From: Verrucomicrobiia bacterium
Lineage (GTDB): Bacteria > Verrucomicrobiota > Verrucomicrobiia > Limisphaerales > UBA11358
Direction of reading: 5' to 3'
DNA: 64,000 bases
NCBI GenBank assembly: GCA_036490655.1
Contig: DASXDM010000016.1
Span: forward strand, 83,135 to 147,134
Within the stretch, counting starts at the first letter, position 1; every line of letters begins with the position of its first letter. The notes below the pieces were generated by a model, which was not told where the DNA came from, did not search any database, and saw only the letters and a list, made by a program, of their open reading frames with translations. This document shows positions 1-41,556 of the stretch, in pieces. Both the position numbers and the translations under genes were made by a program.

Positions 1-228
1 GAGGCCGAGGCGGATTTTTGGTCGGAGAACCGGCCGGCGCTGCGACTGATGGAAGGGGCCATGTCGGGCAGCACGGAGAGTTCCGAGTCGGTCACGATCA
101 CTTTGCGGATCGATCCGCGGATGCTGGCGCGGATCAAGCGGCTCGCGCGGTCGCGGTACCTGAATTATCAAAGCATGATCAAGCAGTGGTTGAGTGAGCG
201 GATGGAAGACGAATTGAGAGAAAAATGA
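1..228 (+). CDS. C-terminal part of a ribbon-helix-helix (CopG/BrnA-like) antitoxin; 5' end lies outside the window
   Basis: Frame-1 ORF is open from base 1 to TGA 226-228. Translation ...VTITLRIDPRMLARIKRLARSRYLNYQSMIKQWLSERMEDELREK has the strand-helix-helix pattern and the YQSxIKxWL tail typical of CopG-type antitoxins. Confidence 0.5.
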   Translation, partial: EAEADFWSENRPALRLMEGAMSGSTESSESVTITLRIDPRMLARIKRLARSRYLNYQSMIKQWLSERMEDELREK

Positions 229-947: not shown

Positions 948-1141
948 AAGATATCGCCACAACTTTTAGAGACGGCCCGCGCGCGGTGCCGGTGGAGTGG
1001 AGCGATTGCGCCTGGCGCCCGCGCATCACAAAGCTGCCAGTCGAACGTCTCGGATGGAGGGTTTCTCAAATCTCTCAACGGAAGTGCCTGACCTCCCCCC
1101 TCAACCTACAGCCGCGCCGCAATACGATCTATTTCAAAGCC

Positions 1142-1984
1142 ATGAAAACCAACCTGCCTTCCTCGCGCCGGTCCCGTTCCGGTTTCACCCTTGTAGAACT
1201 GCTGACGGTGATCGGCATCATCGCCATTTTGGCGGCGCTGCTATTGCCGGTGCTCAATGCTGCCCAGCAGCACGGGCGGATCACCCAGGCCAAGGCTGAA
1301 GAATCGCAACTCGTCAGTGCCATCCAGAAATATGATTCGGATTACGGACGGTTCCCCCTTTCCACCAACGCGCAAGTGGTGGCGGCGACCGCCGGAGGCC
1401 AAAAAGGCGATTTTACGTATGGGGGAATATTTTTTGATGAAAACTTTGCTCCTACGGCCATCGGCACGACGGTGGCAAGCGCAGCAACGAAAGTCCTTAC
1501 TAATAACGAAGTCATGGCCATATTGATGGACAATACCAATTGGGCGCCGGATGCCTCCACGGGCATCCCCGTCAATGCCAATTACACCAAGAACCCGCAA
1601 CAGAATATCTATCTGGGGAGCGTGAAACTTTCCGGCTATGACCCCGCCAATCCCTCGGCCACGCCGGTCGGGGGCATGGATGTCTATGGCAATTATCGCG
1701 ACCCGTGGGGCAGGCCGTATGTCATCACAATGGGAACAAGTTATCGTGAACCGCCATTGTGCAACGATTGGCTTTATCAGAAACAAGCCGTCTCTCAAAT
1801 TGGCGGCACCGGCGTGCAGGGTTACAATGGATTGTCCAATCCGGATTCGGGCGGTAACACGCCTAATTTTCAATATCACGGGGACGTGATGGTTTGGTCG
1901 GCGGGCCCGAATCCCGGCATGGTGGATGTCGGTGACCCGGCGACTGACGCCCAGAATAAGGGGCATATTTTAAGCTGGCAGTGA
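1142..1984 (+). CDS. Prepilin-type pseudopilin, second GspG-like paralogue
   Basis: MKTNLPSSRRSRSGFTLVELLTVIGIIAILAALLLPVL with canonical G-1/F+1/E+5. Also ITQAKAEESQLVSAIQKYDSDYGRFP and C-terminal DPWGRPYVI...VWSAGPN. Start moved from the track's 863 to the ATG at 1142 to give a normal-length leader. Confidence 0.8.
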   Translation: MKTNLPSSRRSRSGFTLVELLTVIGIIAILAALLLPVLNAAQQHGRITQAKAEESQLVSAIQKYDSDYGRFPLSTNAQVVAATAGGQKGDFTYGGIFFDENFAPTAIGTTVASAATKVLTNNEVMAILMDNTNWAPDASTGIPVNANYTKNPQQNIYLGSVKLSGYDPANPSATPVGGMDVYGNYRDPWGRPYVITMGTSYREPPLCNDWLYQKQAVSQIGGTGVQGYNGLSNPDSGGNTPNFQYHGDVMVWSAGPNPGMVDVGDPATDAQNKGHILSWQ

Positions 1985-2008
1985 GATGTTTTTTGAAAGC
2001 GTGAAGTT

Positions 2009-2914
2009 GTGAAGATGAATTGCCGATTGCCGATCGCAGGTAGCCGATGGTCTGAATCAAAGGACAGACGGCGCGCATGGAGTGACGCGCCCTACCATAA
2101 CGCCCGCCCTGCGTCCGCCTTCACCCTCCTGGAACTGCTGGCGGTCATCGCCATCCTGGGCATCATCGGCGCGCTCACGGTCCCCGCACTGAAAAATTTC
2201 GGCAAGTCGGACGCCTCCCTCACTGCCGCGCAACAGATCTTGCGGGACGTCGCCCGCGCGCGCCAGCTCGCCATCGCCGACCGCACCACCATCTATATGG
2301 TTTTTGTGCCGATGAATTTTTGGACGAACACGGCATGGTCAAACGCCATGACTCCGCAGCAACTGATCGTGGTCTCGAACCTGTGCGATGACCAGTTGAG
2401 CGGTTATAATTTTGTGGCTTATGGCGCGCTGGGCGACCAGCCGGGCAAACATCAATGGCATTACCTGGGCCCCTGGCAAAACCTGCCGCAGGGAAATTTC
2501 ATTGCCACCTGGAAATTCACGAACTCCCAGGCCCTTACTTTCACCGATCCGTTCAACAACCAAAATACGTTCAACATCAATCCGTTCAGCTACACGAACG
2601 TGATTCCGTTCCCTTCGGAGTCTGCGACCAACGCCCCAACGCAGCCCTGGCTGCCTTATCTCGAATTTAATTATCTTGGCCAGTTGGTCTTGCCCCAATA
2701 TGCGGACCAGGATTATGCCGGCAGCGGCATTGATATTCCCCTGGACAAGGGCACGGTGTTGGCGGCAGTGAATCCGGCCACCAAGGCGTTTGTATTCGAT
2801 ACCGCGCAAATCATCGAGACGCCTCCCGGCAACAGCACCAATATCCAATACAGCGTCCTCCATATCGACCCGCTGACGGGCCGCGGCACCCTGCTCTTCC
2901 ACCCGATCCAATGA
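2009..2914 (+). CDS. Prepilin-type pseudopilin (GspH-like by position)
   Basis: ASAFTLLELLAVIAILGIIGALTVPAL N-terminal methylation motif. Its stop overlaps the next start (ATGA at 2911-2914). Confidence 0.8.
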   Translation: MKMNCRLPIAGSRWSESKDRRRAWSDAPYHNARPASAFTLLELLAVIAILGIIGALTVPALKNFGKSDASLTAAQQILRDVARARQLAIADRTTIYMVFVPMNFWTNTAWSNAMTPQQLIVVSNLCDDQLSGYNFVAYGALGDQPGKHQWHYLGPWQNLPQGNFIATWKFTNSQALTFTDPFNNQNTFNINPFSYTNVIPFPSESATNAPTQPWLPYLEFNYLGQLVLPQYADQDYAGSGIDIPLDKGTVLAAVNPATKAFVFDTAQIIETPPGNSTNIQYSVLHIDPLTGRGTLLFHPIQ

Positions 2915-3780
2915 AAATGCGCCTGAACATCAAAGGAAGTGAGCGCCAGGGCTCGACGGAGTGTCGCGCCGCCATCGGATTTGGCGTCGCCAGTGGTTTT
3001 ACGATGATCGAGATCGCCATCAGCCTGGCCGTGATCGGGATTGCGCTGGTGGCCATCATTGGCGTGCTGCCCATCGGCATGCGCACCCAGCAGGACAACC
3101 GGCAGGAGACCATCATCAACCAGGACGCGACCATCCTGCTGGAAGACATCCGCAACGGCGTGAGAAGCGCGGATGACCTGACGAATTACGTTTACGCCAT
3201 CACGAATTATTGGACTTTCTATAATGGCAACACGACCAACTCCGGTGTGAACGGCTATACTTTTTCGAACACATATGCCAGCCCCTCGATTCCACCATTT
3301 CCAACGTTGCAACCCCTCACCAACGGCATCAATATCATCGGCCTGTTGAGCATGCCGGAATATGAGGACAATAATGGTTACCCGATTCTCAATTGGACCA
3401 ATTCCGGTTTCAGCAATCACGTCGTTGCCTACATCTCTTCCATCAGCGGACCCGCAGTGGAAAAGCCGCCGCAACCCACCGACAGCCTGGTGCGCCAATC
3501 TGCTTTCGGTTACCGGCTGATTTGTGAAACGGTGGCGGTGCCGTTAAGCACGCCCGATGCTTCTGTGTCGTCCGCTTTACAGAATAATTTGTATGAATTG
3601 CGGTTGTTTTTCCGCTGGCCGCAGCAGCCCAGCGGCAGCCTGGGGCCGGGCGCCCAAAGTTTTCGCACGATGATCGCCGGCCGGCTGCTTAAGGATCGCC
3701 TTCAGCCAAACCTGTTTTTCTTTCAGTCGCAATCGTTCACCAATGCTGTCGTCGCGGCACAACAAGGGCCGCTACCGTAA
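2911..3780 (+). CDS. Prepilin-type pseudopilin (GspI-like by position)
   Basis: ASGFTMIEIAISLAVIGIALVAIIGVLP motif. Overlaps its neighbours (ATGA upstream, TAATG downstream). Confidence 0.75.
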   Translation: MKMRLNIKGSERQGSTECRAAIGFGVASGFTMIEIAISLAVIGIALVAIIGVLPIGMRTQQDNRQETIINQDATILLEDIRNGVRSADDLTNYVYAITNYWTFYNGNTTNSGVNGYTFSNTYASPSIPPFPTLQPLTNGINIIGLLSMPEYEDNNGYPILNWTNSGFSNHVVAYISSISGPAVEKPPQPTDSLVRQSAFGYRLICETVAVPLSTPDASVSSALQNNLYELRLFFRWPQQPSGSLGPGAQSFRTMIAGRLLKDRLQPNLFFFQSQSFTNAVVAAQQGPLP

Positions 3781-4796
3781 TGAGAACTATCTCGCATATA
3801 AACAGGCGCGGGGAAACGACTCCTGCGGGAAAGATCGAAGGAAGGCAAATCCGGGGTTCGACGGCATTTCGCGCCACCAGGGCCTTCACGCTCGTTGAAG
3901 TCATCGTGGTGATGGGGTTGCTGCTCCTGATCGTGACGGCGTTGATGGCGGTGTTCAGCAATACGCAGCGGGCGTTCCGCTCCAGCATCACCCAATCCGA
4001 CATCCTCGAAAACGGCCGCGCCACCATGGAGATGATCGCCCAGGATTTGCGCGGGATGACTCCGTCCTATGGTTATTCCGAGGGCACCAATAATGCGTTG
4101 TTATTGGCCAACGACAATTGTGCCGTTAATTTTTTCGCGACGAACAATTCCATTTTTTATGCGCCGTTAACCCAGCAGTTGATCGGCGCCGACAATGGCG
4201 CCCAGCATACCAATCTGCTGGAATATTTCTTCATTCTGGGCCGGCAGAACACCAGTTGGATCGGGACTGGCTATATCGTCAACACTTATACTGCCAGCAG
4301 CAGTTCTCTCTACCCGCTGTACCGCTTTACCGCCCAGACAAACATCGAAAACAACCCCCTGGGCTTGTTCTATGATTTTCAAAGAGAGATCGTTTCGGAC
4401 CAATGGACCAACATGAGCCATCTCATGGATGGCGTAGTAGGTCTCACCGTCCGCGCTTTTGACACCAATGGCGTTTGGCTCACCAACGGTTATAATTTTA
4501 GTTTAGGCCAGTCGAACGTCTTGAAAAACACGTGGTTCACCCCGCCGTATCCCGGTCCGGGCGGCGAGGTCGGTTTTACGTTCTACAGTAATGCGGTGCC
4601 TGCCAGCGTGCAGATCGAGATGGCCACCCTGGAAGACCGTACCCTGCAGCGCGCCGAATCTTTGGGCATCTCCACCCTTTCGGATTATACGAATGTGCCG
4701 GCGCTATGGAATTACCTCTCCGGTCATGCCAATGCCGTCCACATTTTCCGCCAGCGCGTATCCATTTCGCTGGTCGACCCAACCGCTTATCAATGA
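3780..4796 (+). CDS. Prepilin-type pseudopilin (GspJ/PulJ-like by position)
   Basis: TRAFTLVEVIVVMGLLLLIVTALMAVFS motif. ATGA overlap with the following gene at 4793-4796. Confidence 0.75.
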   Translation: MRTISHINRRGETTPAGKIEGRQIRGSTAFRATRAFTLVEVIVVMGLLLLIVTALMAVFSNTQRAFRSSITQSDILENGRATMEMIAQDLRGMTPSYGYSEGTNNALLLANDNCAVNFFATNNSIFYAPLTQQLIGADNGAQHTNLLEYFFILGRQNTSWIGTGYIVNTYTASSSSLYPLYRFTAQTNIENNPLGLFYDFQREIVSDQWTNMSHLMDGVVGLTVRAFDTNGVWLTNGYNFSLGQSNVLKNTWFTPPYPGPGGEVGFTFYSNAVPASVQIEMATLEDRTLQRAESLGISTLSDYTNVPALWNYLSGHANAVHIFRQRVSISLVDPTAYQ

Positions 4797-7700
4797 AACT
4801 GACCTTGCCGAACGCCGAACGCCGAACGCCGATTTGTAAAAAACCGGCGGCATCTGCTGCATTCATCCGTCGTTCCGAGCGCGGGATTGCGCTGATCATC
4901 ACCCTGATTTTGCTCTCGGTGACGCTGGTCATGGCGGTAGCCTTCCTGGCCATCAGCAATCGCGAACGCGCTTCGGTGACCACCACGACGGATACGGCCA
5001 ATTCGCGGTTTGCCACCGATGCCGCTCTCTCCAGCGCCGAGGCGCAGATCGTTGCCAATGCGTTGGCCGGCGGCTTCAATGCCGCGGAAACGCCCGTCGC
5101 CAACCCTTACAACTTCGGCCTGCTCGTCTCCACCAATTATTTCAACGTGAATGGTTTTAATCCCAAAGACACGACCAATGACCCGGTCAATGTGAATTAT
5201 TATTATACGAGTGATAATACCGCGTATAATCAACAGGACTTTTTGCAAAACCTGGCCAATCTCTATTACCTCCCGCGCGTGCCGTTATATGTCCCGCAAA
5301 ATGGCACGAACGATTTCCGCTTCTACCTCGACTTGAACCGCAACGGGCAATTTGAAGACAGCGGGTGGGTGCCGGTTGTGACATTGAATGCCCAGGGCAA
5401 ACCCCAAACTAATACGATCAATGGAAATACTGAGTTCACCTTCGCGATGGGTGATCCACAATGGATCGGCCTCCTCGAACATCCCGGCCAGCCTTACGGG
5501 CCGAACAATAAATTCATCGCGCGTTTTGCGTTCATCGCCGTGCCTATCGGCAGCTCACTGGATCTGAATTCGATCCATAATCAAACACAGAACCAGCCAT
5601 TAGATATAACGGAGGATGGATATTTCAGAAATCAGGGCGTGGGCACCTGGGAAATTAATCTCGCCGCCTTCCTGTCGGATTTGAACACCAACCAATGGGC
5701 TCCATTGACAGGTCCTGGTGTTTATAATTATGAGCGGCCTTTCAATGTCACCTTTCCCAATTCCGGCTATGCTTTTGCCGATGCTTTTTCATTGGTAGAT
5801 TACCGGTATTCCACCATTTATAATTCGCTGGCCTCAGCCAGCAATCTGTTCAGCCCCAACAGCCTCAACTTCACCAACTATTTTGCCATCGGAAATGTTG
5901 ACGGTTATAGCGATCTGCCATTGCAAACGAATTTTGATACGAATTATAATTATTCTATTGTTAAACAAAATGTTGCCGCGTCCTGGGCAGGTGCCGACAA
6001 TACCAATCATTTCTTCGATCTGCCTTCCGACCTCTTTGATCCTGCAAAAACACTTGACGGTGTTTCCGCTCTGGCAATCTCAGGTGGAAATGATTTCCCG
6101 GCGCGATTACTGAATGCCGGTACGAACAGTAATGCCACCTACGATCGCTATACTTTCTACCGGATGCTGTCGCAGTTGAGTACTGATTCCTCCCCCGAAA
6201 CCGGCCCGGGGAATACGGCCTTGATGAATCTGAATTACGACAACATCGATTATACCAACAATTCAGCCAGCCAGACGAATTTCATGTCCTGGACGCCCAT
6301 CGCCTTCTTCACCAATGCCGCCGACCGGATGTTGAAGATGTACACGGCGCAATGGATGACGGCTTACACCAACGTGGTCACCCCCACTTCGACCAATATC
6401 TATCCGATCTTGAACACAAATTATGTGGTCGCGTTCAACATGACCAACATCTTTGGCATCACGAACATCCCGGTCCTGGTCAGCAACCGGCTTGTTTACA
6501 CGCCTGCGGTCAATCGCGTGCTGCAACTGGCGGCCAACTTGTATGATGCCACGACGACGAATTATTATCCCTCGGTTTTCCGCCCGCTGTTTTTGGTGAC
6601 CAACCAAAACGGTTTCTACAATGTCTTCATCACCGGATATACCAATATCGCTTATGTCACTGGCACGAATGATCCGCAACTGGATCCGCCGGTGGATTTG
6701 GCGTCCATCCTTCTTCCGACGCCGGACCCGGCCATCCTTCTCGCCGGCCCAAATCTGGCGACGAATATTTACGGCATACCATGGATCATCGGCGCCAAAA
6801 AAGGATTCCCCAGCTTCAACGAATTTGTCGGGGAAAACATGGTGGGCATGACCCGGCGCTTGCAATTCGTGCGGGACGTCACTGGCGCCACCGTTAACAA
6901 AACCATCCCCATCCAGCAAACCAACCAGATGTATATGGTCAGCGTGAACACCTCGGGCGGACTGGATTTCTGGAATTCCTACACCAACCGGCTCAACGAT
7001 ATCGTGACCGTGAATTACCGTGTGGTCACTTTTCTGTCGCTCACCAATAGCGATGCGAGTGTTGCGGGCGACGCCGGCGGGCAAGTTCCCAGCCAGCCAA
7101 CGACGTTGGGATATTTCAGCTCAGGTTCCACTTCATTTTCTGCGTGGCCCAGTTCCGCGCCATGGATCGGAGGCCAGCCGAACACCAATTCATTTTATGT
7201 TCCATTGAATTTTATCGCGTTTATAAATCTGTCGAACTCGGTCTATCGCACGCCGAATGCAGGGATGACGCCGGGCGCCATGCCGCCGGGTTATCCTTAT
7301 GGGCCTCCCGCTTTAGTTTCAACAAATTATTTTGATAATGGAGCACCGATAACGGCGGTTTTTGAAAACAATCGGCCCGTCGGCCAGCCATTTTATTCTG
7401 TGCCACAATGGGGTCTGCTGTCGACGAATGCCATGCAGGTGTACATTCTGGACCGGGATTCCGGAGGAACGAACCATGTGATCGACTATGTCCATATGGA
7501 ACAGTCGGGAAGCCAAAATCTTAATAGTGAAATTTTCAGTGATGATACGAGTGGTGTTTGGAACACCAATATAAATCCAAAATACGCCATACCGTGGGGC
7601 ATCGATAATCAAATTCTAATTTCAGAAGGCTTGGTAAATGTTCAGTCAGAAGACGGTAATTGGCAGGCCGATCCGGAAGCTGCCACGTATAGCAGTTCGA

Positions 7701-9061: not shown

Positions 9062-9066
9062 TTTTA

Positions 9067-9100
9067 CGGCGGGGCAGGCATTTTGCCCGCCGGGTTTGTG
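9067..9100 (+). terminator. Weak hairpin plus T-rich tail after the GspK-like gene
   Basis: CGGCGGG(9067-9073)...CCCGCCG(9087-9093), a 7-bp stem with a 13-nt loop, followed by GGTTTGTG. Confidence 0.3.
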
Positions 9101-15200: not shown

Positions 15201-18200
15201 ACGGCGCCACCTTCGCCTATGCCAGCGGCCTGACCAATCTCGCTTACACCGATTGGGCCACCAACCAGCCCGATAATTGCAACGGCAACCAGTTTTATGT
15301 CGCCATCATCACCGCCACCAATGCCCAGTCCGGCTTGTGGGAGATGGCCGATACCAACGGCCGGACTTGCGTCCCGCCCTTCACCAACCTCATCTACGGC
15401 GTCGCGGAAGTGCCCGCCCTCCAGACCAACGGCGTGCAGTTCTGGATCTCGGTCACGAATATCCCCGGCACGACCAACACCATCACCAGCAGCAATGGCT
15501 GCCTCTACGCGAACCTCGTGGACATCACCAACGGCTCCCATATCATTTTTTCCGCGCCCGGCCTGGTCCAATCCAATGTCTTCCAGCACGTCGCCCTCAC
15601 GTACAGCACTAATTCAGGCATCGCCAACCTGTTCTATGACGGCACCAACGTCGCCTCCACCAATCTCGGCGTGTTCATCCCCAAAACCACCGGCGATGTG
15701 TTGCTGGGCAAAGATATGAGCCTGCTCACCAATGATTATTACGGCGGCCTCATGGATGAGATGAGCATTTATCGCCGCGCCTTGTCCGACGCGGAGATCG
15801 CCACCATCTACAGTGTCTCGGCCTCCGCCACCAACGGTCTCACCGGCAAATTTGATCCCGCCGTCACCCCCGCCGCCGGCCTGGCCGAAGCGTTCGTAGA
15901 CCTGGGCGGCTTTACCAATGTCCTCTATGGCCTGAATGATCAGTGGGACCAATTCACTTATACTTTCATCGCCACGTCCAACTCGCTGCCCTTCTCGATC
16001 TCCGGCCTCCAGCCGGGCATGCTGCTCGCCCAATTCTCGGTCGCCCAGGCCCCCATCACCAATTTCTACTATTTCCCCGAACAATCGCTGGCCGAACTCA
16101 CCGGCGATAACGCCTTCGGCAACTGGACCCTCCAGATCTGGGATAATCGCACCGACAGCCTCCTGCCCCCCGATGGCGCCCTGGATAGCTGGACGTTGCA
16201 GATGGTCCTCCAAACCAATACGCCCTCCACCCTGGACCTTGACCCCAATTCACCCCTGACTATCACCATCCCCCCAGGCCAAATCGTCCCGCTGCTCATC
16301 ACGGTCCCGGATTGGGCGTCTCAGGTGGAAAACATCGTCGATTCGGACACCGGCCCGGTGAATGTCTTTTATAATTCCTCGCAGCCCCCCACGGGTGGTG
16401 GAACAGGGGATATAGAATTCACTCCCATAAGCGTGACCGCACCGCCGATTGTTCAGGTCGGTCCTACTTTGACTGCCTTAAGCGCTCCGCCGCTACCCAC
16501 GTCGCCGACAAATTTCTATTATCTCGGCGTCCAAAACACCAATACCCACGCCGTGAACGCCACCGTGGAAGTCGATTTCAATCTCATCAACTTGACGAAC
16601 GATGTCATCTACACCGGCACCGTGGGCACCAACCAAACCGAAAATTATTTCTCGTTCACTGTCACCAACGGGTTCGAAGCCACTTTCCAATTGCTCAAGC
16701 TCAGCGGCAACGCGGACCTCGTCGTCCGCCATACCCCTCCGCTGCCAACGTTGTTCAGCTCCGATTACGCCAGCTTCAACAACAGCAACGCCGATGAAAG
16801 TATCTACGTGCTCACCAATTCGTTGCCCGTCCCCCTCACCAACGGCACCTGGTATCTCGGCGTCATCAAACGTGATGCGGGCGCCCTCAACTATTCCATC
16901 CTGGCCAAGGAATTAGCCACCAATTCCCCGCCCACTGTCCTGGTCATCCCCCTGACCAACAATGTGCCGTACACATTCACCAACGAAGACGCCGGCGCGG
17001 CCCTCACCAATTTCTTCAGTTTCCAGGTCACCAACCCCGTCGTCAACGGCGTCACCAATTATGTCTCCGGCCTGCGCTTCGAGGTCTATGACCTGAATGG
17101 CAACGGCGATCTGACCGTCCAAACCAATGTCCCGCCCTTCGCGCCGCCGTTCTACCAGCTCAGCGCCCAGCCAGGCACCGTCCCCGAATATATCCAGGTC
17201 CAGACTAATAGCACCCTGACCAACCTCGCCGCCACCTGGTTCCTGGGAGTACCGAACAATGAGACGAATCCCATCAATTTTACCATCGTCGCCGAGATCG
17301 AAACCAATGGCGCGTTCCCCGCTTTCCCCGGAGCCCAGGGCGCCGGCGCCGGTACCGCCGGCGGCGGCGGCATCGGACCGGGCTTCACCAACAATACGGT
17401 CTATCATGTCACCAGCCTGGCTGACGATGGCAGTTTCGGTACATTACGGGATGCCGTGACGCGGACCAACCGGACGATTGTTTTCGACATTTCGGGTGTG
17501 ATCTTCCTGCAAACCCCGCTGGTCATTACCAATTCCTTCCTGACTATCGCCGGCCAATCCGCCCCGGGTGGCGGTATCACCGTCGCCGGCCAAATGACCG
17601 AATTGAGCACAAACCATGACGTCATCATCAGGGATGTAAGGTTCCGCGCCGGTGGCGCTCCATTGACTGGTTTTGAGATGGCGATCGCTGGAGATTATAC
17701 CAATGGACAAATAGTCGGAACGTGGACGGTTAAATCCAATCAGGTAAGTGTCGTTACTGATGCAGTCAATGCGATGCAAAGCAGCAACTATTTGGCTTTG
17801 GCCAATGGAACCATTTCAACCAACCTGACAACGATCCCAGGGCAGACTTACGCTGTGACATTTGGTTACCGCGGACCAGACATTGCGGGATGGTGGCGCG
17901 GCGAGAGCAATTTAGTTGATAGTGTCTACGGCAATAATGGTGTAGACACCAACGGAATGGTTGCTTATTCACATGCCCAAGTAGGACTGGGATTCAATTT
18001 TAATGGAAATCCCAACCGCGTGATTGTGTCTAATGCCCCAATTTTGAACTTTGTCTCAAATCAGAATTTCTCGATGGATGTATGGATTAAAGCAATTCCA
18101 TATAGCCCGGTTGGAAATGTTGCATCAATTTTCGACAAACGGACTATAAACGGTGCTGATTGCCATGGCTATGAACTCAATCTCAGTGGTGGTTCTGTAA

Positions 18201-21200
18201 ACCTCCACTTGTCCGATAACAATAATAGTGATGGTACCGTTTGGGGCGGCCCATACTTGGCCGATTCAACTTTACATCAACTTATTGTGACGCTAATGCG
18301 AAATTCCACAACAGGCATCCGCATATATGTGGATGGTACTCTCAGAGATACATATGATGCGACCTCCGTGCCAGGTGACCTTACAACCACTGTCCCATTG
18401 CGCATAGGTAATCATTCTGATCCGACTTATACCTCATCTTGGGACGGATTGATTGATGAAGCCTCTCTTTACGACCGTGCTTTATCCGCTTCCGAAGTCA
18501 AAGCCATTTATATGGACAGTACTAACGGTAAATTTGACCCTGTTGAATTCAAAATTTCGCCATCGTTGAGCTTGGCTAAGGCTCAAATTTTGGTAAATGG
18601 TGCTACTAACCTGATTTTTTATGGAAACAATACTAATTGGCAAGTTGAGACGGCCACTTTCACAGCGACTTCCAATAAGACAGCCGTTGCTATCTCCGGC
18701 ATGGAGCCCGGCATGTTGCTGGATGCATTAAGTATTGCACCCGGTGATTCTTTACAATTTAACACTGTATCAAACGTCATTGCCGATCACATCTCCACCG
18801 AATGGAGTACCAACAATGATCTGTCTGCCTTGAATTCTACCAATGTGACGGTACAATGGTCCATCATTGCCGACAGCGTGCATAACTCTGCCACCAATGG
18901 CTATGGTTCCTTGCTCCGCAACGGGAATGGCACGTTGAGCTTTCATCACAATCTTTATGCTGACAATGCCTATGCCAGCCCGCGGCTTGGCGATAATCTC
19001 AATCTCGATTTTGAGGATAACGTTATCTACAACTGGGGTACCAACGCCGGGTATTCCATGAATGAAACCCTCACCGATGATCCGAATGGCTTCACAAACA
19101 GGATGAATTACATCTGTAATTATCTCATTGCCAGCACCAATTCCCTGACGAATACCATCGCATTCTGGGCGGGTACGACGAATACCTGGATTTACCAGAC
19201 CAACAATTTCATCCAAAGCACCAACACCTCTACCAATACTTTGACTTATTTGGCGTTAACCGGACAAAACACCGGCTGGAATATGTTCACCACCAATGCG
19301 ACAGAATTCGATCGCGAATTCCAATTCCCGCCCATCTCAGTCGATGAAGCCGATCTCGCGTACGAAAAAGTTTTGGACTTTGCCGGGCCGGACATGGCTC
19401 AACGCGATGCTGTGGATACAAATATTGTCGGGCATGTCCGCACCCAGAATGGTTCTTTCCTCACTACAGAACCCATCCTGTCACTATCGGGTTCCGTGTT
19501 TCCCAACCTCGACACCGACCAGGACGGGATTCCGGATTTTTGGGAGGACACATTTGGGAGCAATCCTTTTGTCCCAAGCCAGAACAACGTCCTGGACGGT
19601 TCGGGTTATACCGAGCTTGAAGAATACCTCAACTGGCTGGCCGGACCGCATGCCCTCACGGTCACCAATCAGCCTGTCGGAGTGGATTTGATGCAACTCT
19701 TTGGCCAGACGGGCAACTTGAGTTTCTTTGTGACCAACGCGGTCAACGGCTCGGTTTATCTGACCAACGTCCTGAATTACACCAATGTCACCGGCACCCT
19801 CTTTGCAGTGACCAACACCGGCACCTATAGCAACAGCTTTGCTATCTTCACCCCGGCAAATAATTTCAACGGCACAACCACCAATTACGGCCTGGCCTCG
19901 TTCGACGTGTATGTCACGAATAACACCACGGTGGCTTACTTCGGCCCGGTCACGGTCAGCGTCGTCGCCAGCAAAGTCGCAGTTAAAGTAAATACCAACA
20001 TACCACCGGTGATTACCTCACTTGGCTTTGGAGTTTTTGATCCTACCAACTCCGGCGGCACGGATTTTTATGGACCTTATGTGCCAGACGCCAATGCAAT
20101 TGGCATGTCGTTTGTTGTCACAAACATCAACCCGACCGGCGGGGCGGATTTAATAGTCGCATACAACCGGTTGCCGTCGCTGTCAGACTACGATTACATC
20201 AGCACCAATCCGGTCAATGAGGCAGTGGTCATCTGGACCAATTCCATGCCGGTGCCGCTGACCAATGGCAACTGGTACGTGGGGGTGGTCGATGTCAATC
20301 CCTCCGGCGGATCGGTCAGTTATGATTTCCAGGCCACGGAATATCCGACCTTGTATCGGCCGCTGTTCCTGTACCCGACCACCAATGAAGTGTTCAGCAA
20401 CATTGAAACGACGCTCTTCCAACTGCAATGCCAGGCGACCGACACCAATACGCCGCCGCTGCCGCTAACATTCAGTCTGCTGAACCAGCCGGCCAATGTG
20501 CCCGGCGCGACCAACGTCATGACCATTGATCCCAATACGGGCCTCATCAATTGGACTCCCAACGAGGCGCAAGGTCCTTCCACCAACTCCATTTCCGTCA
20601 ATGTGTCGAACGGGGCTTACAGTGACACGAACACCTTTACGGTGATCGTGTTGGAATCGAATCTGGCGCCGTTCTGGCCGACCAATGTTCCCCTCCAGAC
20701 CAATTATGTCATCAACGCCTATGACCTGCTGACGGTGATGAACACGGCCACGGATACCGATATCCCGACGAATCCCTTGTCCTATGCGATGACGGTGACG
20801 CCGGCGGCGGGCAATGTCTCCATCGACACCAACGGCATCATCACCTGGACGCCGACGCTTGCCCAGGTGGGAAGCAATTACCTGTTCACCACGATAGTGA
20901 CGGATACGAACCCGTGGGCGATCAACTCGAAGTCCTTGAGCAACACGAATTATTTCACGGTCACGGTTCTTCCGCCATTGAACTTCACCAACGGGATGCC
21001 GCAGACGAACACCGTTCCACCCGGAGGAATCAGTTGGGTGGCCGTCCCGGTGCCGACGAATGCCATTTATGCGACGAATCTCCTGATCTATGCCACCAAC
21101 CTGCAGGTGAACGTCTGGTTCAGCACCAACCTGCCGCCGACCATCACCAATCCCCATGACCAGATCATTATCCCGGATGCCACCTCCGGCGTGAGGGTGC

Positions 21201-22102
21201 TGGGCACCAACACTTCACCGGGGATCATCCCGGGCAACACGTATTTCCTGGGGGTGCAGAACACCAATCCCGTCACGATTGGCTATGCTTTGACGGTTCA
21301 TTTCGGGTATCCGGCTTCGTCCGTTCTGACCAATAGCATCCGCATCTCGAGCATCGTCCATACGAATATCAATGGGACCAACGGATTCCTGCTGACGTGG
21401 TTCGCGCCCAGCAACGATCTGTTCCAGGTGCAATGGACCGCTTCCCTGTCGCCGACCAGCTGGGCCTCGTTCACCAGTATCATCGGTTACAATACGAATG
21501 CTTTTACCAGTCCCAATAACACCCAGTTCAACTTCTTCGATGACGGTACGCAAACCGGCGGCTTCGGAACGATCCGGTTCTACCGGCTGGCCCTGTTGCA
21601 GGCGAGCACGGTGATCCTGCCGGCCCAAACCAATTTTGTCGTCCAGTTCTCCACCCCGGTCACGGTCACCAATACGGCGAGCGATTCCAATCCCAACACG
21701 ATCCTCACTTATAACCTGGTCAACCCGCCCGCCGGCGCTGCCATCGGCACCAATGGCGTCATCACCTGGGCCAATGCCCTTCCGGCCGGCCTGGCCGCGC
21801 GTTTCCTCACGGTGGCCACCGACAATGAATTGCCGCCCGCCCAGGCCACGAATCAATTCACCATCTTTGTCGCGCCGTTCCCGGCCATCACCAACGTAAG
21901 CGCCACGGCCACCAACGTCACCCTGGCCTGGCGGGCGCCGACCAATGATCAATTTCAGGTCCAATGGTCGACCAACCTGGCTTCCCCCATCACCTGGTAC
22001 CTCCTGCCCAATATCGTCACCTCCCCCAATGGCGTCTTCGCCTTCACCGATAACAATACCCTGTTGACCGAGAAATTCTACGAGTTGATCCTCCTGCCAT
22101 AG
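9287..22102 (+). CDS. 4,271-aa membrane-anchored multidomain protein: I9-like propeptides, S8 subtilase, P-domain-like, LamG x2, C-type lectin, pectate-lyase-like beta-helix, PPC-like, cadherin-like and FN3-like modules
   Basis: Single uninterrupted ORF. N-terminal anchor MWILLSLLGIGGAWIFW. Subtilase triad motifs VNDSGID / DGHGTFVAG / GTSMAAADVSG. See the domain sub-features below. Confidence 0.9.
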   Translation: MRSRVKMWILLSLLGIGGAWIFWHMENGHMLRAGRQRPLPVMSLASSAPRLTKASLAQKAAQLTASRTNLFAYRLNNTGKTLEQLLHDPHAILLENALIDSRRPLGLTFPKSLQRQGDPGAYLVQARGVDSGAFRAMLAANGAKVISYIPNNAYLVEASAGIAGTVAQNPATQAVLPYEPYYKVQSTLLGAATAQTILPRNAILTLGLFPDNAAQTISQIQNLGAQIVSEDSSPFGPVVRVMPPTDWTALADLPGVQIVEPSHTRVHANDLSRVTTGVSVDTLVATNYLDLSGLNVMVDVNDSGIDQTHPDFTLNGNAASGPSGPTRVTGQFAGDLVDTDGHGTFVAGEIAGNGSESHPPGGVNVGAAAEGSVTNADFRGKAPAAMLFAVDFHGSDSNLQAEAALTNALISNNSWVYSGDQTYDLAAASYDAATRDALPYTQGSQPVLFVFAAGNDGFGQIGGNNNTADTIDSPGTAKNVITVGALEEARNITNYVTVDGVSNQVWAGITANNFQVADFSSCGNVGIGMEGQFGRFKPDVVAPGTFVVSTRSSEWDTNAYYNPTNYDDSILTNLVVGAGQLEYFGLSIPQNAISVEIEALPFNPANTLWIYASDSDFPDPANPTSADFSETNEVLIPPDNPPNSTSATYLSEIQATVLNYAIVNSNAQDVAYDLFTQIATTNDNGDYYDVLSNMNDSLGPYYRYETGTSMAAADVSGVLALMQDYFTNHLQLQPSPALMKALLLNGARLSDAELYNLQVNNTINYEGWGLVNLPNTLPPDITTNGFNGAVASSIYFQDQSPTNALATGDLHTYTLIAQTNNEPLRLTLAWTDPPGNPVAAIKLVNSLQLTVTNTDNPTNIVVYYGNDIGEASAFNTAESPTNPVAPDTINNVQTIIIPEPLGTNYTITVKGYRVNVNAVVEQTNNIVQDYALVVSSGDGDATGSFTVVDQGTVSNPAGDQDILAIGTTNAPVDNQVLGASSPLLGTNTVSVGTNSTWASSGLITVGQTNQWHFYIVTNEAQDSAGSTADVTNAAFVTYNANTLALPRTGVYANSEANSTRTEADVDLFVTTDPTLTNLSATALSNCVNGAQIGASAGGAFNGASLGRGGEEVIVDTNSQHGEVYYVGVQSEDQMAAEYNYISLFTSVPFSQMNNSNGVETVNGNPIPAAIPSGSPAVPGFSDVLGISLQPIQIQAVIVTNVFEQVDAGDLVSSLTLDSGVGGRTTAVLMNHNSPNVPGTFPYVYDDTGTVIASTLPPNYTLHHSDGPGSLLNFVGQNVGIFSLWNYHIANSVTPFSGSVDTLSLTLIPHENPQKGITVSIPPGSWYYNYVIVPPGYTNLTVAATNLMVPPGSIPLQLYLNDGNPPTTNNFLFEAGLTNSPTGLLYPNGADPGNSISYGPPLAPGTYWIGIINGNTVAQTVYLIATLSGFQSGIPPTVTASNGPPLTPEAVTSTNIFISSTGEVASVNVGIVASYPRISDLTFTLVSPEGQEVLLMENRGGITTSNAGAMELFSNLVNSTATGGAAASTNYLAANPAGGTLPIAYNFYTLPDEMTVYDSTNPLDFNPNGPFCILDTGFINNPPAGPGSQNTQTEYTNTTSAYPPNSPGLTIIMNQFGNPYATGNGDAWTYTAGSAQTNFEYLMFTEDTNLTDTPIKFAVPPFGFDGGATNYSFSFEQATNGDYFGFTNIFDPFGGWTLPTNLTTVTTVFNLASNQDVTLTNTVVLTNNFVTVVTDPNNSLGDNFQSNYLALADGTITRSIPTIPGEQYNITFWYRGPGIAGWWRGEGNALDSANPENDGQNGSLIGRFDFPAGEVGQSFEMEDNGQPFDFAGTNSYVQIHPQYAFSTVSNAIVESSTLDVGAGGEFTIEGWINPTNVTFQQPLVEWLAGTPTNYPNVTDTNFNIVAGPFLDPATSHYYYLLGATNWTVSEAWAQSLGGHLATVDTADEENWIYDAFENYDGTNRNLWIGLTNNGATFAYASGLTNLAYTDWATNQPDNCNGNQFYVAIITATNAQSGLWEMADTNGRTCVPPFTNLIYGVAEVPALQTNGVQFWISVTNIPGTTNTITSSNGCLYANLVDITNGSHIIFSAPGLVQSNVFQHVALTYSTNSGIANLFYDGTNVASTNLGVFIPKTTGDVLLGKDMSLLTNDYYGGLMDEMSIYRRALSDAEIATIYSVSASATNGLTGKFDPAVTPAAGLAEAFVDLGGFTNVLYGLNDQWDQFTYTFIATSNSLPFSISGLQPGMLLAQFSVAQAPITNFYYFPEQSLAELTGDNAFGNWTLQIWDNRTDSLLPPDGALDSWTLQMVLQTNTPSTLDLDPNSPLTITIPPGQIVPLLITVPDWASQVENIVDSDTGPVNVFYNSSQPPTGGGTGDIEFTPISVTAPPIVQVGPTLTALSAPPLPTSPTNFYYLGVQNTNTHAVNATVEVDFNLINLTNDVIYTGTVGTNQTENYFSFTVTNGFEATFQLLKLSGNADLVVRHTPPLPTLFSSDYASFNNSNADESIYVLTNSLPVPLTNGTWYLGVIKRDAGALNYSILAKELATNSPPTVLVIPLTNNVPYTFTNEDAGAALTNFFSFQVTNPVVNGVTNYVSGLRFEVYDLNGNGDLTVQTNVPPFAPPFYQLSAQPGTVPEYIQVQTNSTLTNLAATWFLGVPNNETNPINFTIVAEIETNGAFPAFPGAQGAGAGTAGGGGIGPGFTNNTVYHVTSLADDGSFGTLRDAVTRTNRTIVFDISGVIFLQTPLVITNSFLTIAGQSAPGGGITVAGQMTELSTNHDVIIRDVRFRAGGAPLTGFEMAIAGDYTNGQIVGTWTVKSNQVSVVTDAVNAMQSSNYLALANGTISTNLTTIPGQTYAVTFGYRGPDIAGWWRGESNLVDSVYGNNGVDTNGMVAYSHAQVGLGFNFNGNPNRVIVSNAPILNFVSNQNFSMDVWIKAIPYSPVGNVASIFDKRTINGADCHGYELNLSGGSVNLHLSDNNNSDGTVWGGPYLADSTLHQLIVTLMRNSTTGIRIYVDGTLRDTYDATSVPGDLTTTVPLRIGNHSDPTYTSSWDGLIDEASLYDRALSASEVKAIYMDSTNGKFDPVEFKISPSLSLAKAQILVNGATNLIFYGNNTNWQVETATFTATSNKTAVAISGMEPGMLLDALSIAPGDSLQFNTVSNVIADHISTEWSTNNDLSALNSTNVTVQWSIIADSVHNSATNGYGSLLRNGNGTLSFHHNLYADNAYASPRLGDNLNLDFEDNVIYNWGTNAGYSMNETLTDDPNGFTNRMNYICNYLIASTNSLTNTIAFWAGTTNTWIYQTNNFIQSTNTSTNTLTYLALTGQNTGWNMFTTNATEFDREFQFPPISVDEADLAYEKVLDFAGPDMAQRDAVDTNIVGHVRTQNGSFLTTEPILSLSGSVFPNLDTDQDGIPDFWEDTFGSNPFVPSQNNVLDGSGYTELEEYLNWLAGPHALTVTNQPVGVDLMQLFGQTGNLSFFVTNAVNGSVYLTNVLNYTNVTGTLFAVTNTGTYSNSFAIFTPANNFNGTTTNYGLASFDVYVTNNTTVAYFGPVTVSVVASKVAVKVNTNIPPVITSLGFGVFDPTNSGGTDFYGPYVPDANAIGMSFVVTNINPTGGADLIVAYNRLPSLSDYDYISTNPVNEAVVIWTNSMPVPLTNGNWYVGVVDVNPSGGSVSYDFQATEYPTLYRPLFLYPTTNEVFSNIETTLFQLQCQATDTNTPPLPLTFSLLNQPANVPGATNVMTIDPNTGLINWTPNEAQGPSTNSISVNVSNGAYSDTNTFTVIVLESNLAPFWPTNVPLQTNYVINAYDLLTVMNTATDTDIPTNPLSYAMTVTPAAGNVSIDTNGIITWTPTLAQVGSNYLFTTIVTDTNPWAINSKSLSNTNYFTVTVLPPLNFTNGMPQTNTVPPGGISWVAVPVPTNAIYATNLLIYATNLQVNVWFSTNLPPTITNPHDQIIIPDATSGVRVLGTNTSPGIIPGNTYFLGVQNTNPVTIGYALTVHFGYPASSVLTNSIRISSIVHTNINGTNGFLLTWFAPSNDLFQVQWTASLSPTSWASFTSIIGYNTNAFTSPNNTQFNFFDDGTQTGGFGTIRFYRLALLQASTVILPAQTNFVVQFSTPVTVTNTASDSNPNTILTYNLVNPPAGAAIGTNGVITWANALPAGLAARFLTVATDNELPPAQATNQFTIFVAPFPAITNVSATATNVTLAWRAPTNDQFQVQWSTNLASPITWYLLPNIVTSPNGVFAFTDNNTLLTEKFYELILLP
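10130..11620 (+). other. Peptidase S8 (subtilisin-like) catalytic domain of the giant protein
   Basis: Asp codon 10190-10192 (DSG), His 10310-10312 (HGT), oxyanion NNSW near 10520, Ser 11411-11413 (GTSMA). Followed by LRLTLAWTDPPG...NNVQTIIIP, a beta-sandwich typical of large bacterial subtilases. Confidence 0.85.
14625..15815 (+). other. LamG/concanavalin-like domain 1, interrupted by a C-type lectin
   Basis: GWWRGEGNALD...GQSFEMEDNG...FTIEGWINP ... HVALTYSTNSGIANLFYDGT...GGLMDEMSIYRRALSDAEIATIY. Confidence 0.6.
15029..15412 (+). other. C-type lectin-like domain nested inside LamG 1
   Basis: HYYYLLGATNWTVSEAWAQSLGGHLATVDTADEENWIYDAF...NLWIGLTNN...YTDWATNQPDN...GLWEMADTNGRTCVP matches the CTLD pattern (W-x-x-A-x-x-C/L-x-x-x-G-G-H-L-A-x-I, WIGL, W...P.N). 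Confidence 0.6.
17383..19470 (+). other. Pectate-lyase-like right-handed beta-helix, split by an inserted ~1-kb sandwich+LamG module (17735-18740)
   Basis: N part: NNTVYHVTSLADDGSFGTLRDAVTRTNRTIVFDISGVIFLQTPLVITNSFLTIAGQSAPGGGITVAG. C part: ADHISTEWSTNNDLS...VTVQWSIIADS...LSFHHNLYADNAYASPRLG...DFEDNVIYNWG...AYEKVLDFAGP..QRDAVDTNIVGHV. Confidence 0.55.
17888..18515 (+). other. LamG/concanavalin-like domain 2
   Basis: GWWRGESNLVD...VGLGFNFNGNPNRVIV...FSMDVWIKA...LHQLIVTLMRNSTTGIRIYVDGT...WDGLIDEASLYDRALSASEVKAIY. Confidence 0.6.
20440..20985 (+). other. Two cadherin-like/putative-Ig repeats
   Basis: LTFSLLNQPANVPGATNVMTIDPNTGLINWTPNEAQGPSTNSISVNVSNG and LSYAMTVTPAAGNVSIDTNGIITWTPTLAQVGSNYLFTTIVTD. 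A third copy lies near 21690-21870. Confidence 0.5.
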
Positions 22103-41514: not shown

Positions 41515-41556
41515 GGCTTCGTTTCCCCGGCCTTGGGTCGAACACCAGCGTTCCAA

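What the first reader, a model, noticed from the sequence alone, without database searches (positions are those of the whole stretch)
225..22102. Complete minor-pseudopilin set (G,G,H,I,J and a giant K) directly followed by a 4,271-aa anchored subtilase/lectin/lyase protein: candidate pilus-tip or pseudopilus-presented multi-enzyme machine
Six consecutive same-strand genes carry prepilin cleavage/methylation N-termini. Genes 3-6 are translationally coupled (ATGA at 2911 and 4793, TAATG at 3778). The sixth lacks Glu+5, as GspK does. In T2SS and type IV pili the H-I-J-K (or FimU-PilVWX) set forms the filament tip, and in T4P it recruits a large adhesin (PilY1). Here the gene after the tip set encodes a 4,271-aa protein with an N-terminal anchor, a protease, two LamG domains, a C-type lectin, a pectate-lyase-like helix and adhesin-like repeats. 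No secretin, ATPase, platform or prepilin peptidase gene is in the window, so this looks like a self-contained tip-plus-cargo module. That a pseudopilus presents or extrudes this giant degradative protein is my inference; the sequence alone does not demonstrate it.
Basis: partly seen in the sequence, partly recalled or inferred. Interest (0 to 1): 0.8.

Follow-up and report, generated by a model that had tools for sequence, protein, structure and literature searches.

The report
Pilus operon with giant tip-slot protease
This is the far end of a retractile type IV pilus operon, kept across an order of soil and freshwater Verrucomicrobia, in which a 1,400-residue orphan protein holds the tip-pilin position and a 2,000-4,300-residue active protease with lectin domains holds the place where other bacteria encode the tip adhesin PilY1; whether the pilus carries or exports that protease is untested.

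Summary
Six same-strand genes with pilin-type N-termini (g1-g6) are followed by a 4,271-aa protein with an S8 protease, C-type lectin, two LamG domains and a pectate lyase.

The "self-contained module without ATPase or platform" reading is a window-edge artefact. On the same contig, PilB-like, PilT, a second PilB/GspE-like ATPase and PilC lie directly upstream.

The gene order is PilB-PilT-PilB-PilC, a BrnT/BrnA-like pair, g1-g6, then the giant. It holds in about 65 of 66 evaluable Limisphaerales species genomes, down to 35% identity of g6.

The H/I/J/K labels rest on gene order and N-terminal helices only. The globular parts match nothing by profile search. Two AlphaFold2 models of g6 had no PDB fold match.

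The giant's catalytic triad is invariant in 64 of 64 homologues. Its middle varies, and it ends in a conserved FN3-like domain (RFYRLxxLP).

Best reading: a type IVa-like pilus whose PilY1 slot holds a giant protease-adhesin. The functional link is inferred, because UvrA is conserved next door too. New variant of a known kind; interest about 0.6.

The parts
1..228 (+). 3' end of a BrnA/CopG-like 91-aa gene. Its stop overlaps the g1 start. It is paired upstream with a BrnT-like 95-aa gene that lies outside the window.
   Evidence: The pair is present between pilC and g1 in 57 of 57 loci.
225..947 (+). g1, a 240-aa prepilin with a GspG/PilA-like N-terminal helix. Candidate major or accessory pilin.
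   Evidence: N_methyl 27 bits. The GspG model matches positions 2-61 only, at 37 bits against a cut-off of 88.85. Motif kept in 62 orthologues.
1142..1984 (+). g2, a 280-aa prepilin counted from ATG 1142. The ORF is open from 863, and a gene caller used ATG 944. Duplicated in some relatives.
2009..2914 (+). g3, a ~300-aa prepilin in the FimU/GspH position.
   Evidence: N_methyl above cut-off. Weak N-terminal hit to Verru_Chthon cassette protein D. A family profile matches only pilin alpha1 helices in the PDB.
2911..3780 (+). g4, a 289-aa prepilin in the PilV/GspI position. Its start overlaps the g3 stop (ATGA).
3780..4796 (+). g5, a 338-aa prepilin in the PilW/GspJ position. Its start overlaps the g4 stop (TAATG).
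4793..9061 (+). g6, 1,422 aa. The pilin-like N-terminus lacks Glu5 (PilX/GspK position). A ~1,350-aa body follows that has no Pfam domain and no PDB fold match.
9067..9092 (+). GC-rich hairpin followed by GGTTTGTGT in the 225-nt gap between g6 and the giant. A weak terminator-like site that is not conserved in relatives.
9287..22102 (+). Giant protein of 4,271 aa in the pilY1 position.
9287..9370 (+). Giant: conserved N-terminal signal-peptide-like or signal-anchor segment (MRSRxxIWILLCLLCLAGAWFFW in relatives).
10169..11566 (+). Giant: S8 subtilase catalytic domain with Asp302, His342 and Ser709.
   Evidence: Triad invariant in 64 of 64 homologues.
13676..13822 (+). Giant: proprotein-convertase P-domain-like segment.
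15032..15343 (+). Giant: C-type lectin-like domain, at about the Pfam threshold.
15440..15802 (+). Giant: first LamG (Laminin_G_3) domain.
17324..19186 (+). Giant: pectate-lyase-like region with approximate limits, interrupted by the second LamG domain (18047-18502). This part is absent from most homologues.
20702..20911 (+). Giant: Ig-like/cadherin-like (Big_9) domain.
21371..21598 (+). Giant: internal copy of the FN3-like C-terminal domain.
21884..22099 (+). Giant: terminal FN3-like domain ending ...KFYELILLP-COOH (family consensus RFYRLxxLP).

Best explanation
Shown: the finding is the distal two thirds of one conserved gene cluster of Limisphaerales (Verrucomicrobiota). The cluster encodes a type IVa-pilus-like machine in this order:
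- a PilB-like ATPase, PilT, a second PilB/GspE-like ATPase and PilC;
- a BrnT/BrnA-like pair;
- two GspG/PilA-like prepilins (g1, g2) and three ~300-aa prepilins (g3-g5);
- a 1,400-aa protein with a Glu5-less pilin N-terminus (g6);
- a Sec-targeted, catalytically intact S8 protease of 2,000-4,300 aa.

Inferred by analogy with fimU-pilVWX-pilY1 and GspH-I-J-K:
- g3-g6 form the priming complex that ends up at the pilus tip, with the huge body of g6 as the cap.
- The giant protein is exported by Sec to the periplasm and takes the PilY1 role. It would ride out on, or be handed over by, this tip complex.
- That would place a protease with lectin, LamG and Ig-like modules (plus a pectate lyase in this genome) at a distance from the cell.
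- PilT-driven retraction would pull bound polymer or prey surface back.
- The invariant terminal FN3-like domain is the best candidate for the docking element.
For: Machine genes lie directly upstream on the same contig and strand. PilT scores 440 bits against a cut-off of 319, and the two PilB/GspE-like ATPases and PilC/GspF score close to their equivalog cut-offs.

Class III signal motifs are kept in g1-g5 across 62-72 orthologues each. g6 has a GspK/PilX_N-like N-terminus without Glu5. g3-g6 have overlapping start and stop codons.

The gene order, including the giant, is kept in about 65 of 66 evaluable species genomes, down to 35% g6 identity. It is also found in 3 of 3 contexts reached from the giant's side. 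The g6-to-giant gap is only 6-40 nt in several species, and no terminator is conserved.

The giant's triad is invariant in 64 of 64 homologues. Its architecture is a conserved N-terminal 1,500 aa, a variable middle and an always-terminal FN3-like domain. That domain was found only in the giants among about 2 Mb of neighbourhoods.

After removing the PilB/PilC background, evolutionary distances of the giant's core co-vary with those of the pilins (partial r 0.39-0.52). Pilins co-vary with each other to the same degree (0.36-0.61). The figure against the motor proteins is 0.14-0.15.

A published parallel exists. Omnitrophota giant genes are preceded by a conserved T2SS-like locus with class III signal-peptide genes (bioRxiv 10.1101/2023.11.21.568195).
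Against: - No PilY1 domain, GspK alpha-domain or any other tip-protein fold was detected in g6 or the giant.
- The H/I/J/K identities are positional only.
- UvrA is also conserved just downstream, so this neighbourhood keeps its order even for an unrelated gene.
- One genome, L061, lacks the giant downstream of g6.
- The window has a 225-nt gap with a hairpin between g6 and the giant.
- No secretin, PilMNOP or prepilin peptidase gene lies in the 74 kb examined.
- A 450-kDa protein is far larger than any cargo or tip protein I know to pass a secretin (my own knowledge).
- The rate co-variation may only reflect shared fast evolution of exposed proteins.
- The AlphaFold2 models of g6 were of low to moderate confidence (mean pLDDT 53 and 63).
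Confidence: 0.4

Rival explanations
1. Dedicated secretion rather than tip display. The cluster works like a type II secretion system. A short pseudopilus of g1/g2 capped by g3-g6 pushes the Sec-exported giant enzyme through a secretin, and the enzyme is released or stays loosely on the surface.
For: The second ATPase scores slightly higher on the GspE model than on the PilB model (610 vs 599 bits), and PilC scores 398 bits on GspF against a cut-off of 424. g1 and g2 match GspG best, although only at the N-terminus. The giant is built from typical secreted-enzyme modules: subtilase, pectate lyase and lectins. The Omnitrophota giant genes sit behind T2SS-like loci.
Against: PilT sits inside the operon in 55 of 57 loci, and a retraction ATPase is not part of a T2SS. 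No GspC, L, M or D gene lies in the region. All Gsp pseudopilin models score far below their cut-offs. The cargo would be several times larger than any T2SS substrate I know of (my own knowledge).
Confidence: 0.25
2. Neighbours only. The giant protease is an ordinary Sec-exported surface enzyme, and its adjacency to the pilus genes is inherited gene order without functional coupling.
For: UvrA, which is clearly unrelated in function, is also kept directly downstream of the giant in many loci, and a TPR protein follows it in the window and in L088. The g6-to-giant gap has a median of 236 nt and reaches 1,085 nt. In the window it contains a hairpin and a weak promoter-like site. L061 has the pilin set without the giant next to it. 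No interaction domain was recognised.
Against: The giant lies on the same strand in the exact pilY1 position in about 65 of 66 genomes, across an order-level divergence in which g6 falls to 35% identity. Gaps of 6-40 nt occur in several species. All giant-core homologues examined were in this context. Rate co-variation with the pilins exceeds that with the motor proteins.
Confidence: 0.2
3. The giant S8 protease acts on the pilus itself. It would process or trim the large exposed pilins such as g6, or degrade pili, rather than attacking external substrates.
For: The active site is invariant. There is a kexin-like P-domain. The g6 family also has shorter, pilin-less paralogues, one of them 3.6 kb from another S8 gene.
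Against: The lectin, LamG, Ig-like, pectate-lyase and WD40/RCC1 modules point to external ligands. No cleavage motif was identified, and such a role would not need 2,000-4,300 residues.
Confidence: 0.05

Closest known systems
Type IVa pilus minor-pilin/PilY1 operon (fimU-pilVWX-pilY1 of Pseudomonas; the PilY1 plus minor-pilin priming and tip complex of Myxococcus)
   Same: Four consecutive, translationally coupled prepilin genes are followed by a large Sec-exported protein. The last pilin lacks Glu5. PilB, PilT and PilC belong to the same system. The large protein has a variable effector part and a conserved C-terminal part.
   Different: There is no PilY1 C-terminal domain and no recognisable FimU, PilV, PilW or PilX globular domain. 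The PilX-position protein is about 1,400 aa instead of about 200. The PilY1-position protein is 2-4 times larger and is an active subtilase. The motor genes are in the same operon, with two assembly ATPases.
Type II secretion pseudopilus (GspG plus the GspH-I-J-K tip)
   Same: The number and order of pilin-like genes match. The GspK-like N-terminus lacks Glu5. The ATPase and platform proteins are GspE/GspF-like. A degradative enzyme is encoded alongside.
   Different: PilT is present. GspC, L, M and D are not in the cluster. All Gsp pseudopilin models score far below their cut-offs and match only at the N-terminal helix.
Verru_Chthon cassette (NCBIfam TIGR02600 protein A, TIGR02598 B, TIGR02599 C, TIGR02596 D), of unknown function
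   Same: A verrucomicrobial cassette of three prepilin-like proteins plus one ~1,300-aa protein with a pilin-like N-terminus. g3, g4, g5 and g6 give their weak best or near-best hits to D, B, C and A respectively.
   Different: The hits cover only the first ~60-110 residues and are far below the cut-offs (for example 30 bits against 332 for protein A). It is therefore a different family with the same layout. Whether those cassettes are linked to motor genes or to giant proteins was not examined.
Omnitrophota giant genes behind a conserved T2SS-like locus (West-Roberts et al., bioRxiv 10.1101/2023.11.21.568195)
   Same: The organisms belong to the same PVC superphylum. A very large protein with an N-terminal hydrophobic segment and adhesion or degradation domains is preceded by secretion and pilus genes and by small genes with class III signal peptides.
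   Different: Those proteins exceed 30,000 aa, often carry SecA DEAD-like domains, and their locus includes gspD. Here the protein is 2,000-4,300 aa with a subtilase core, and PilT is present.
KP-43/SubHal-type subtilases and PL1 pectate lyases
   Same: Sequence-level homology of the catalytic modules, with the S8 triad intact.
   Different: Here the modules are embedded in a multi-thousand-residue protein with lectin, LamG, Ig-like and FN3-like modules, encoded in a pilus operon.

Membership tests
Type IVa pilus system | Prepilins with a class III signal peptide (G/A|F-T-L-x-E) | tested here: met
   N_methyl hits, TIGR02532 hits, and the motif is kept in 62-72 orthologues of each of g1-g5.
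Type IVa pilus system | PilT-type retraction ATPase | tested here: met
   L006:4989-6092 scores 440 bits on TIGR01420 against a cut-off of 319. Present in 55 of 57 loci.
Type IVa pilus system | PilB assembly ATPase and PilC platform protein | tested here: inconclusive
   Pfam T2SSE+MshEN and T2SSF are present. PilB model: 622 bits against a cut-off of 676. PilC models: 383-405 bits against 700. The GspE and GspF models score about equally well.
Type IVa pilus system | Core minor pilins FimU, PilV, PilW and PilX recognisable by their globular domains | tested here: not met
   Only the N-terminal helices match (PilV 27 bits against a cut-off of 52; PilX_N in 3 of 24 members at E~0.02). Family profiles searched against the PDB hit alpha1 helices only.
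Type IVa pilus system | PilY1 with its C-terminal propeller domain | tested here: not met
   No PilY1/PilC-family Pfam hit in g6 or the giant. No propeller match by Foldseek for g6. The giant's fold was not modelled.
Type IVa pilus system | Secretin PilQ, PilMNOP and prepilin peptidase | not testable with these tools
   None lies in the 64-kb window or the 10 kb upstream. The rest of the genome could not be read.
Type II secretion system | GspG and GspH-I-J-K at equivalog level | tested here: not met
   GspG 37-41 bits against a cut-off of 88.85, GspH 22-28 against 80, GspJ 17-18 against 65, GspK 14 against 130.
Type II secretion system | GspC, GspL, GspM and GspD encoded with GspE and GspF, and no retraction ATPase | tested here: not met
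   These genes are absent from the cluster and its flanks, and PilT is present.
Verru_Chthon cassette (TIGR02596/02598/02599/02600) | Scores above the curated cut-offs of the four models | tested here: not met
   Protein D 30.6 bits against 70, B 19 against 51, C 28.8 against 256, A at most 30 against 332. Only N-terminal positions match.
Verru_Chthon cassette (TIGR02596/02598/02599/02600) | Layout of three prepilin-like genes plus one ~1,300-aa protein with a pilin-like N-terminus | tested here: met
   g3-g6 have this layout. That the cassette is defined this way rests on the model names and lengths, and on my memory of the TIGRFAMs description.
Subtilase (peptidase S8) | Asp/His/Ser triad in DxG, HGT and GTSxA motifs | tested here: met
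   D302, H342 and S709 are invariant in 64 of 64 homologues. Pfam E-value 2e-32.
Pectate lyase (PL1-like) | Sequence homology to a solved pectate lyase | tested here: met
   9buj_A at 1.2e-22 in two stretches. Catalytic residues were not examined, and the module is absent from most homologues.
Omnitrophota-type giant gene locus | Giant gene (>30,000 aa) downstream of a T2SS-like locus that includes gspD | tested here: not met
   This protein is 4,271 aa and no gspD lies nearby. Only the general arrangement is shared.

The most novel reading that the evidence does not exclude
A retractile type IV pilus that carries a catalytically active giant enzyme-adhesin at its tip, mounted on a 1,400-residue cap pilin of a new fold. 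The enzyme combines a subtilase with lectins and, in some species, a polysaccharide lyase. This would be an 'enzymatic grappling hook' that lets Limisphaerales bind, cut and reel in polymers or prey surfaces. If it also applies to the Omnitrophota giant-gene loci, it would be a PVC-wide way of deploying very large proteins.
Probability: 0.22. Interest if true: 0.85.

Novelty: new variant of a known kind. Interest (0 to 1): 0.6.

Why it matters
Limisphaerales (Verrucomicrobia subdivision 3) are abundant polymer degraders in soil, peat and freshwater, and almost none are cultured. This cluster is close to universal in the sampled members. Relatives of g6 were found in 528 GTDB species genomes.

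The cluster contains two large proteins that nobody has described. One is an orphan family of 1,300-1,500-aa pilin-headed proteins (1,401 clusters at 50% identity, no Pfam domain, no PDB fold match). The other is a giant protease sitting exactly where type IV pili encode their tip adhesin.

If the pilus does carry or export the protease, pili would gain a catalytic, substrate-capturing function. It would also give a testable model for how PVC bacteria deploy very large surface proteins. If it does not, the locus still defines the type IV pilus system of this order and corrects the idea of a stand-alone tip module.

Tried and rejected
1. Self-contained module. Rejected: the motor genes lie just beyond the window edge.

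2. g6 as a PilX-PilY1 fusion or a GspK with its alpha-domain. A profile against PDB sequences found nothing. Two AlphaFold2 models were made, and only g6 residues ~590-1030 were confident. Foldseek gave no hit better than E=0.02. The idea is not supported, though the weak models limit the test.

3. Assigning g3, g4 and g5 to H, I and J with family profiles against the PDB. Only alpha1 helices matched.

4. Terminator-defined separate unit. The window has a hairpin (-15 to -17 kcal/mol, z=-1.2). No terminator-like hairpin is conserved in 60 relatives, and the gaps range from 6 to 1,085 nt.

5. Sigma-54 promoter upstream of the pilin or giant genes. There are no sites in the intergenic regions, and the window total is at the chance level.

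6. C-terminal FN3-like domain as a widespread sorting tag. The database search returned only short fragments of giant genes, because the protein collection did not return the long proteins. The result is uninformative. Within about 2 Mb of loci the domain occurs only in giants.

7. Propeptide (Inhibitor_I9) in the giant's first 300 aa. No Pfam hit.

8. Literature searches for this cluster in Verrucomicrobia, Limisphaerales or Pedosphaera, and for 'Verru_Chthon cassette'. Nothing relevant was found.

9. Rate co-variation as evidence of interaction. It is positive, but no stronger than a generic effect of exposed, fast-evolving proteins would give, and no unrelated surface protein was available as a control.

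Full report
**What is in the window.** The plus strand carries seven consecutive genes: g1 225-947, g2 1142-1984 (ORF open from 863), g3 2009-2914, g4 2911-3780, g5 3780-4796, g6 4793-9061 and a 4,271-aa gene at 9287-22102. ATGA lies at 2911-2914 and 4793-4796, and TAATG at 3778-3782.

Pfam N_methyl is above threshold for g1-g3 and just below it for g4 and g5. NCBIfam models for GspG, GspH, GspJ, PilV and ComG pilins match only the first 40-110 residues, far below their cut-offs. g6 has the hydrophobic pilin-type N-terminus but isoleucine where Glu5 would be. Its only hit is the first 62 positions of the GspK model, at E=0.024.

The giant protein carries the following:
- Peptidase_S8 (2e-32);
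- a P-domain;
- a C-type lectin at the Pfam threshold;
- two LamG domains;
- Ig-like/cadherin-like modules;
- a pectate-lyase region that matches PDB entry 9buj at 1e-22.

The observation therefore stands.

**What the window edge hid.** Looking up g6 and g1 in public assemblies returned the same contig (JGI Ga0376660_0000133) with 10 kb more upstream. Directly before g1, on the same strand, lie:
- a 570-aa PilB-like ATPase with an MshEN domain;
- a 367-aa PilT (TIGR01420, 440 bits against a cut-off of 319);
- a second 568-aa PilB/GspE-like ATPase;
- a 439-aa PilC/GspF;
- a 95-aa BrnT-like ORF;
- a 91-aa BrnA/CopG-like ORF whose stop overlaps the g1 start.

Further upstream are lgt and miaA, so the cluster starts at the first ATPase. 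The statement that no ATPase or platform gene is present is true of the window but wrong for the locus. This is not a self-contained tip-plus-cargo module. The PilT gene makes the machine type IVa-pilus-like rather than a type II secretion system. No secretin, PilMNOP or prepilin peptidase gene lies in the 74 kb I could read, and the rest of the genome was out of reach.

**Conservation.** g6 belongs to a large family. At least 1,489 relatives were found in the 90%-clustered collection, all 1,300-1,500 aa, all without Pfam domains, and all from Verrucomicrobiota MAGs. A scan of GTDB species representatives found relatives in 528 genomes and returned 80 loci, essentially all Limisphaerales/subdivision 3. 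An exhaustive HMMER search with the g6 body found 1,401 clusters at 50% identity.

A BLAST-based gene map of the 80 loci shows the same order nearly everywhere: PilB, PilT, PilB, PilC, BrnT-like, BrnA-like, g1, g2, g3, g4, g5, g6, giant, often followed by UvrA.
- Of 66 loci with a full-length g6 and at least 3 kb downstream, about 65 have the giant gene directly downstream. L061 is the exception.
- All 57 loci with enough upstream sequence have g1-g5 and the small gene pair, and 55 of them have the motor genes.
- This holds down to 35% identity of g6.
- Starting from the giant's non-protease core, the three contexts I examined were again this cluster, with genes split by frameshifts in long-read MAGs.

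The caveat is that UvrA, which has nothing to do with pili, is also conserved downstream. Order in this neighbourhood is sticky, and synteny alone does not prove a functional link.

**The pilin-like proteins.** The class III signal motif with Glu5 is kept in 62-72 orthologues of each of g1-g5. Profiles built from 46 orthologues each of g3, g4 and g5 matched only the alpha1 helices of solved pilins. Nothing matched the globular parts. The H, I, J labels are therefore positional.

Among 24 members of the g6 family, 17 weakly match the N-terminus of GspK and 11 match Verru_Chthon cassette protein A. In both cases only the first ~57 positions of those models are matched. g3, g4 and g5 likewise give weak N-terminal hits to cassette proteins D, B and C. 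The block thus has the layout of that uncharacterised verrucomicrobial cassette but is not a member by score.

Two AlphaFold2 models of g6 were made. Residues 1-1200 gave mean pLDDT 53, and residues 560-1422 gave 63. Only residues ~590-1030 were confident, forming sheets of very long antiparallel strands. Foldseek against the PDB gave nothing better than E=0.02, and a family profile against PDB sequences gave nothing. I found no GspK alpha-domain and no PilY1-like propeller. The body of g6 is an unassigned, possibly new fold. Shorter paralogues (~830-950 aa) have this body but no pilin head, for example L038:9785-12439.

**The giant protein.** Its N-terminus is a conserved signal-peptide-like segment (MRSRxxIWILLCLLCLAGAWFFW), with a possible AGA|W signal-peptidase site. 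"Anchored" is therefore not established.

The catalytic Asp302, His342 and Ser709 are invariant in 64 of 64 homologues. Among 38 complete homologues of 1,600-3,200 aa, residues 1-1500 are always conserved, residues 2200-2450 in about 90%, and residues 3900-4100 in about 84%. The pectate-lyase and second LamG region is mostly absent. One relative carries WD40/RCC1 modules instead.

Nearly every complete giant ends in a ~75-aa FN3-like domain with the terminal motif RFYRLxxLP. It occurs in one to five copies, and the last copy is flush with the C-terminus. Among about 2 Mb of neighbourhood ORFs this domain occurs only in the giants.

A conserved catalytic head, a swappable middle and an invariant terminal domain are what one expects of a deployed effector with a docking element. 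That reading is inference.

**Transcription.** The window has a 225-nt gap after g6. It holds a GC-rich hairpin followed by a poor U-tract (-15 to -17 kcal/mol, z=-1.2) and one weak promoter-like site. Across 60 relatives the gap ranges from 6 to 1,085 nt (median 236), with no conserved terminator. Several species have gaps of 6-40 nt, which is compatible with co-transcription. There are no sigma-54-like sites in the intergenic regions.

**Co-variation.** Pairwise protein distances in 45 genomes correlate best between g6 and the giant's core (raw r=0.90). I then equalised alignment lengths and regressed out a PilB/PilC background. After that, the giant co-varies with the pilins (partial r 0.39-0.52) as much as the pilins do with each other (0.36-0.61), and far more than with the motor proteins (0.14-0.15). 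This is consistent with shared exposure or interaction, but I had no unrelated surface protein as a control. The pilins, g6 and the giant evolve about three times faster than PilB and PilC.

**Interpretation.** Shown: this is the pilin and effector half of a conserved type IVa-like pilus operon.

Inferred by analogy with fimU-pilVWX-pilY1 and GspH-I-J-K (established knowledge of those systems):
- g3-g6 prime assembly and cap the fibre;
- the giant protease-adhesin, in the pilY1 position, is displayed on the pilus or exported with its help;
- PilT retraction could then bring bound substrate to the cell.

I put about 0.4 on this. The rivals are a T2SS-like dedicated secretion of the giant (0.25), mere neighbourhood (0.2) and a pilus-processing protease (0.05).

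The nearest published parallel is the report that Omnitrophota giant genes sit behind a conserved T2SS-like locus with class III signal-peptide genes. I found no paper describing this verrucomicrobial cluster.

**Verdict.** The locus is best filed as a new variant of a type IV pilus system, not as a new kind of machine and not as a member of the T2SS or PilY1 families. Interest is moderate to high (0.6). It has two large undescribed protein families, near-universal conservation in an abundant uncultured order, and a clear, testable hypothesis. There is no direct evidence yet for the pilus-enzyme link.

Noticed in passing
window 1-228 and L006:9373-10004: A BrnT-like (95 aa) and BrnA/CopG-like (91 aa) gene pair sits between pilC and the first pilin gene in 57 of 57 loci. 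It is as conserved as PilB and PilC (mean distance 0.19-0.20 against 0.26). That is unusual for a toxin-antitoxin pair. It may be a domesticated regulator of the pilin genes, and the BrnA stop overlaps the g1 start.
   Followed up: partly
L038:9785-12439; L072:9791-12421: Paralogues of the g6 body exist without the pilin head (876-884 aa). They have a Sec-like N-terminus and an FN3-like C-terminus ending QFFRSV, and occur elsewhere in the genomes of the closest relatives. In L038 another S8 protease ORF lies 3.6 kb upstream (5026-6192). The exhaustive search shows many such ~830-950-aa forms.
   Followed up: partly
L006:3171-4883 and L006:6099-7805: Two assembly-type ATPases flank PilT. The first scores higher on the PilB model (622 vs 594 bits) and the second higher on the GspE model (610 vs 599). 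This may hint at two modes of fibre assembly, but the difference is small.
   Followed up: no
window 62442-62487 (-): A match to the Rfam family Acido-Lenti-1 sRNA at 41.9 bits against a gathering score of 37. It was the only Rfam hit in the window.
   Followed up: no
window 41218-42327, 50128-51048, 55925-56959, 59900-60829: Several transposase genes: IS200-like Y1, two of the IS1595 family, and one IS1-like. Most lie in a lower-GC stretch (0.43-0.48 against ~0.56) from about 50 to 62 kb, probably acquired DNA.
   Followed up: no
window 4807-4832: A perfect 7-nt tandem repeat, GCCGAAC x3.7, lies just inside the start of g6, in the leader before the pilin-like helix. A change in copy number would shift the reading frame.
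   Followed up: no
window 22176-26281: An FkbM-type methyltransferase gene lies between the giant gene and uvrA in this genome. In most relatives uvrA follows the giant directly, and L090 has a different methyltransferase at that spot.
   Followed up: no
L089:13405-18672: In one relative the giant's variable part carries WD40/RCC1-type propeller repeats instead of the pectate lyase. This shows module swapping in the middle of the protein.
   Followed up: no
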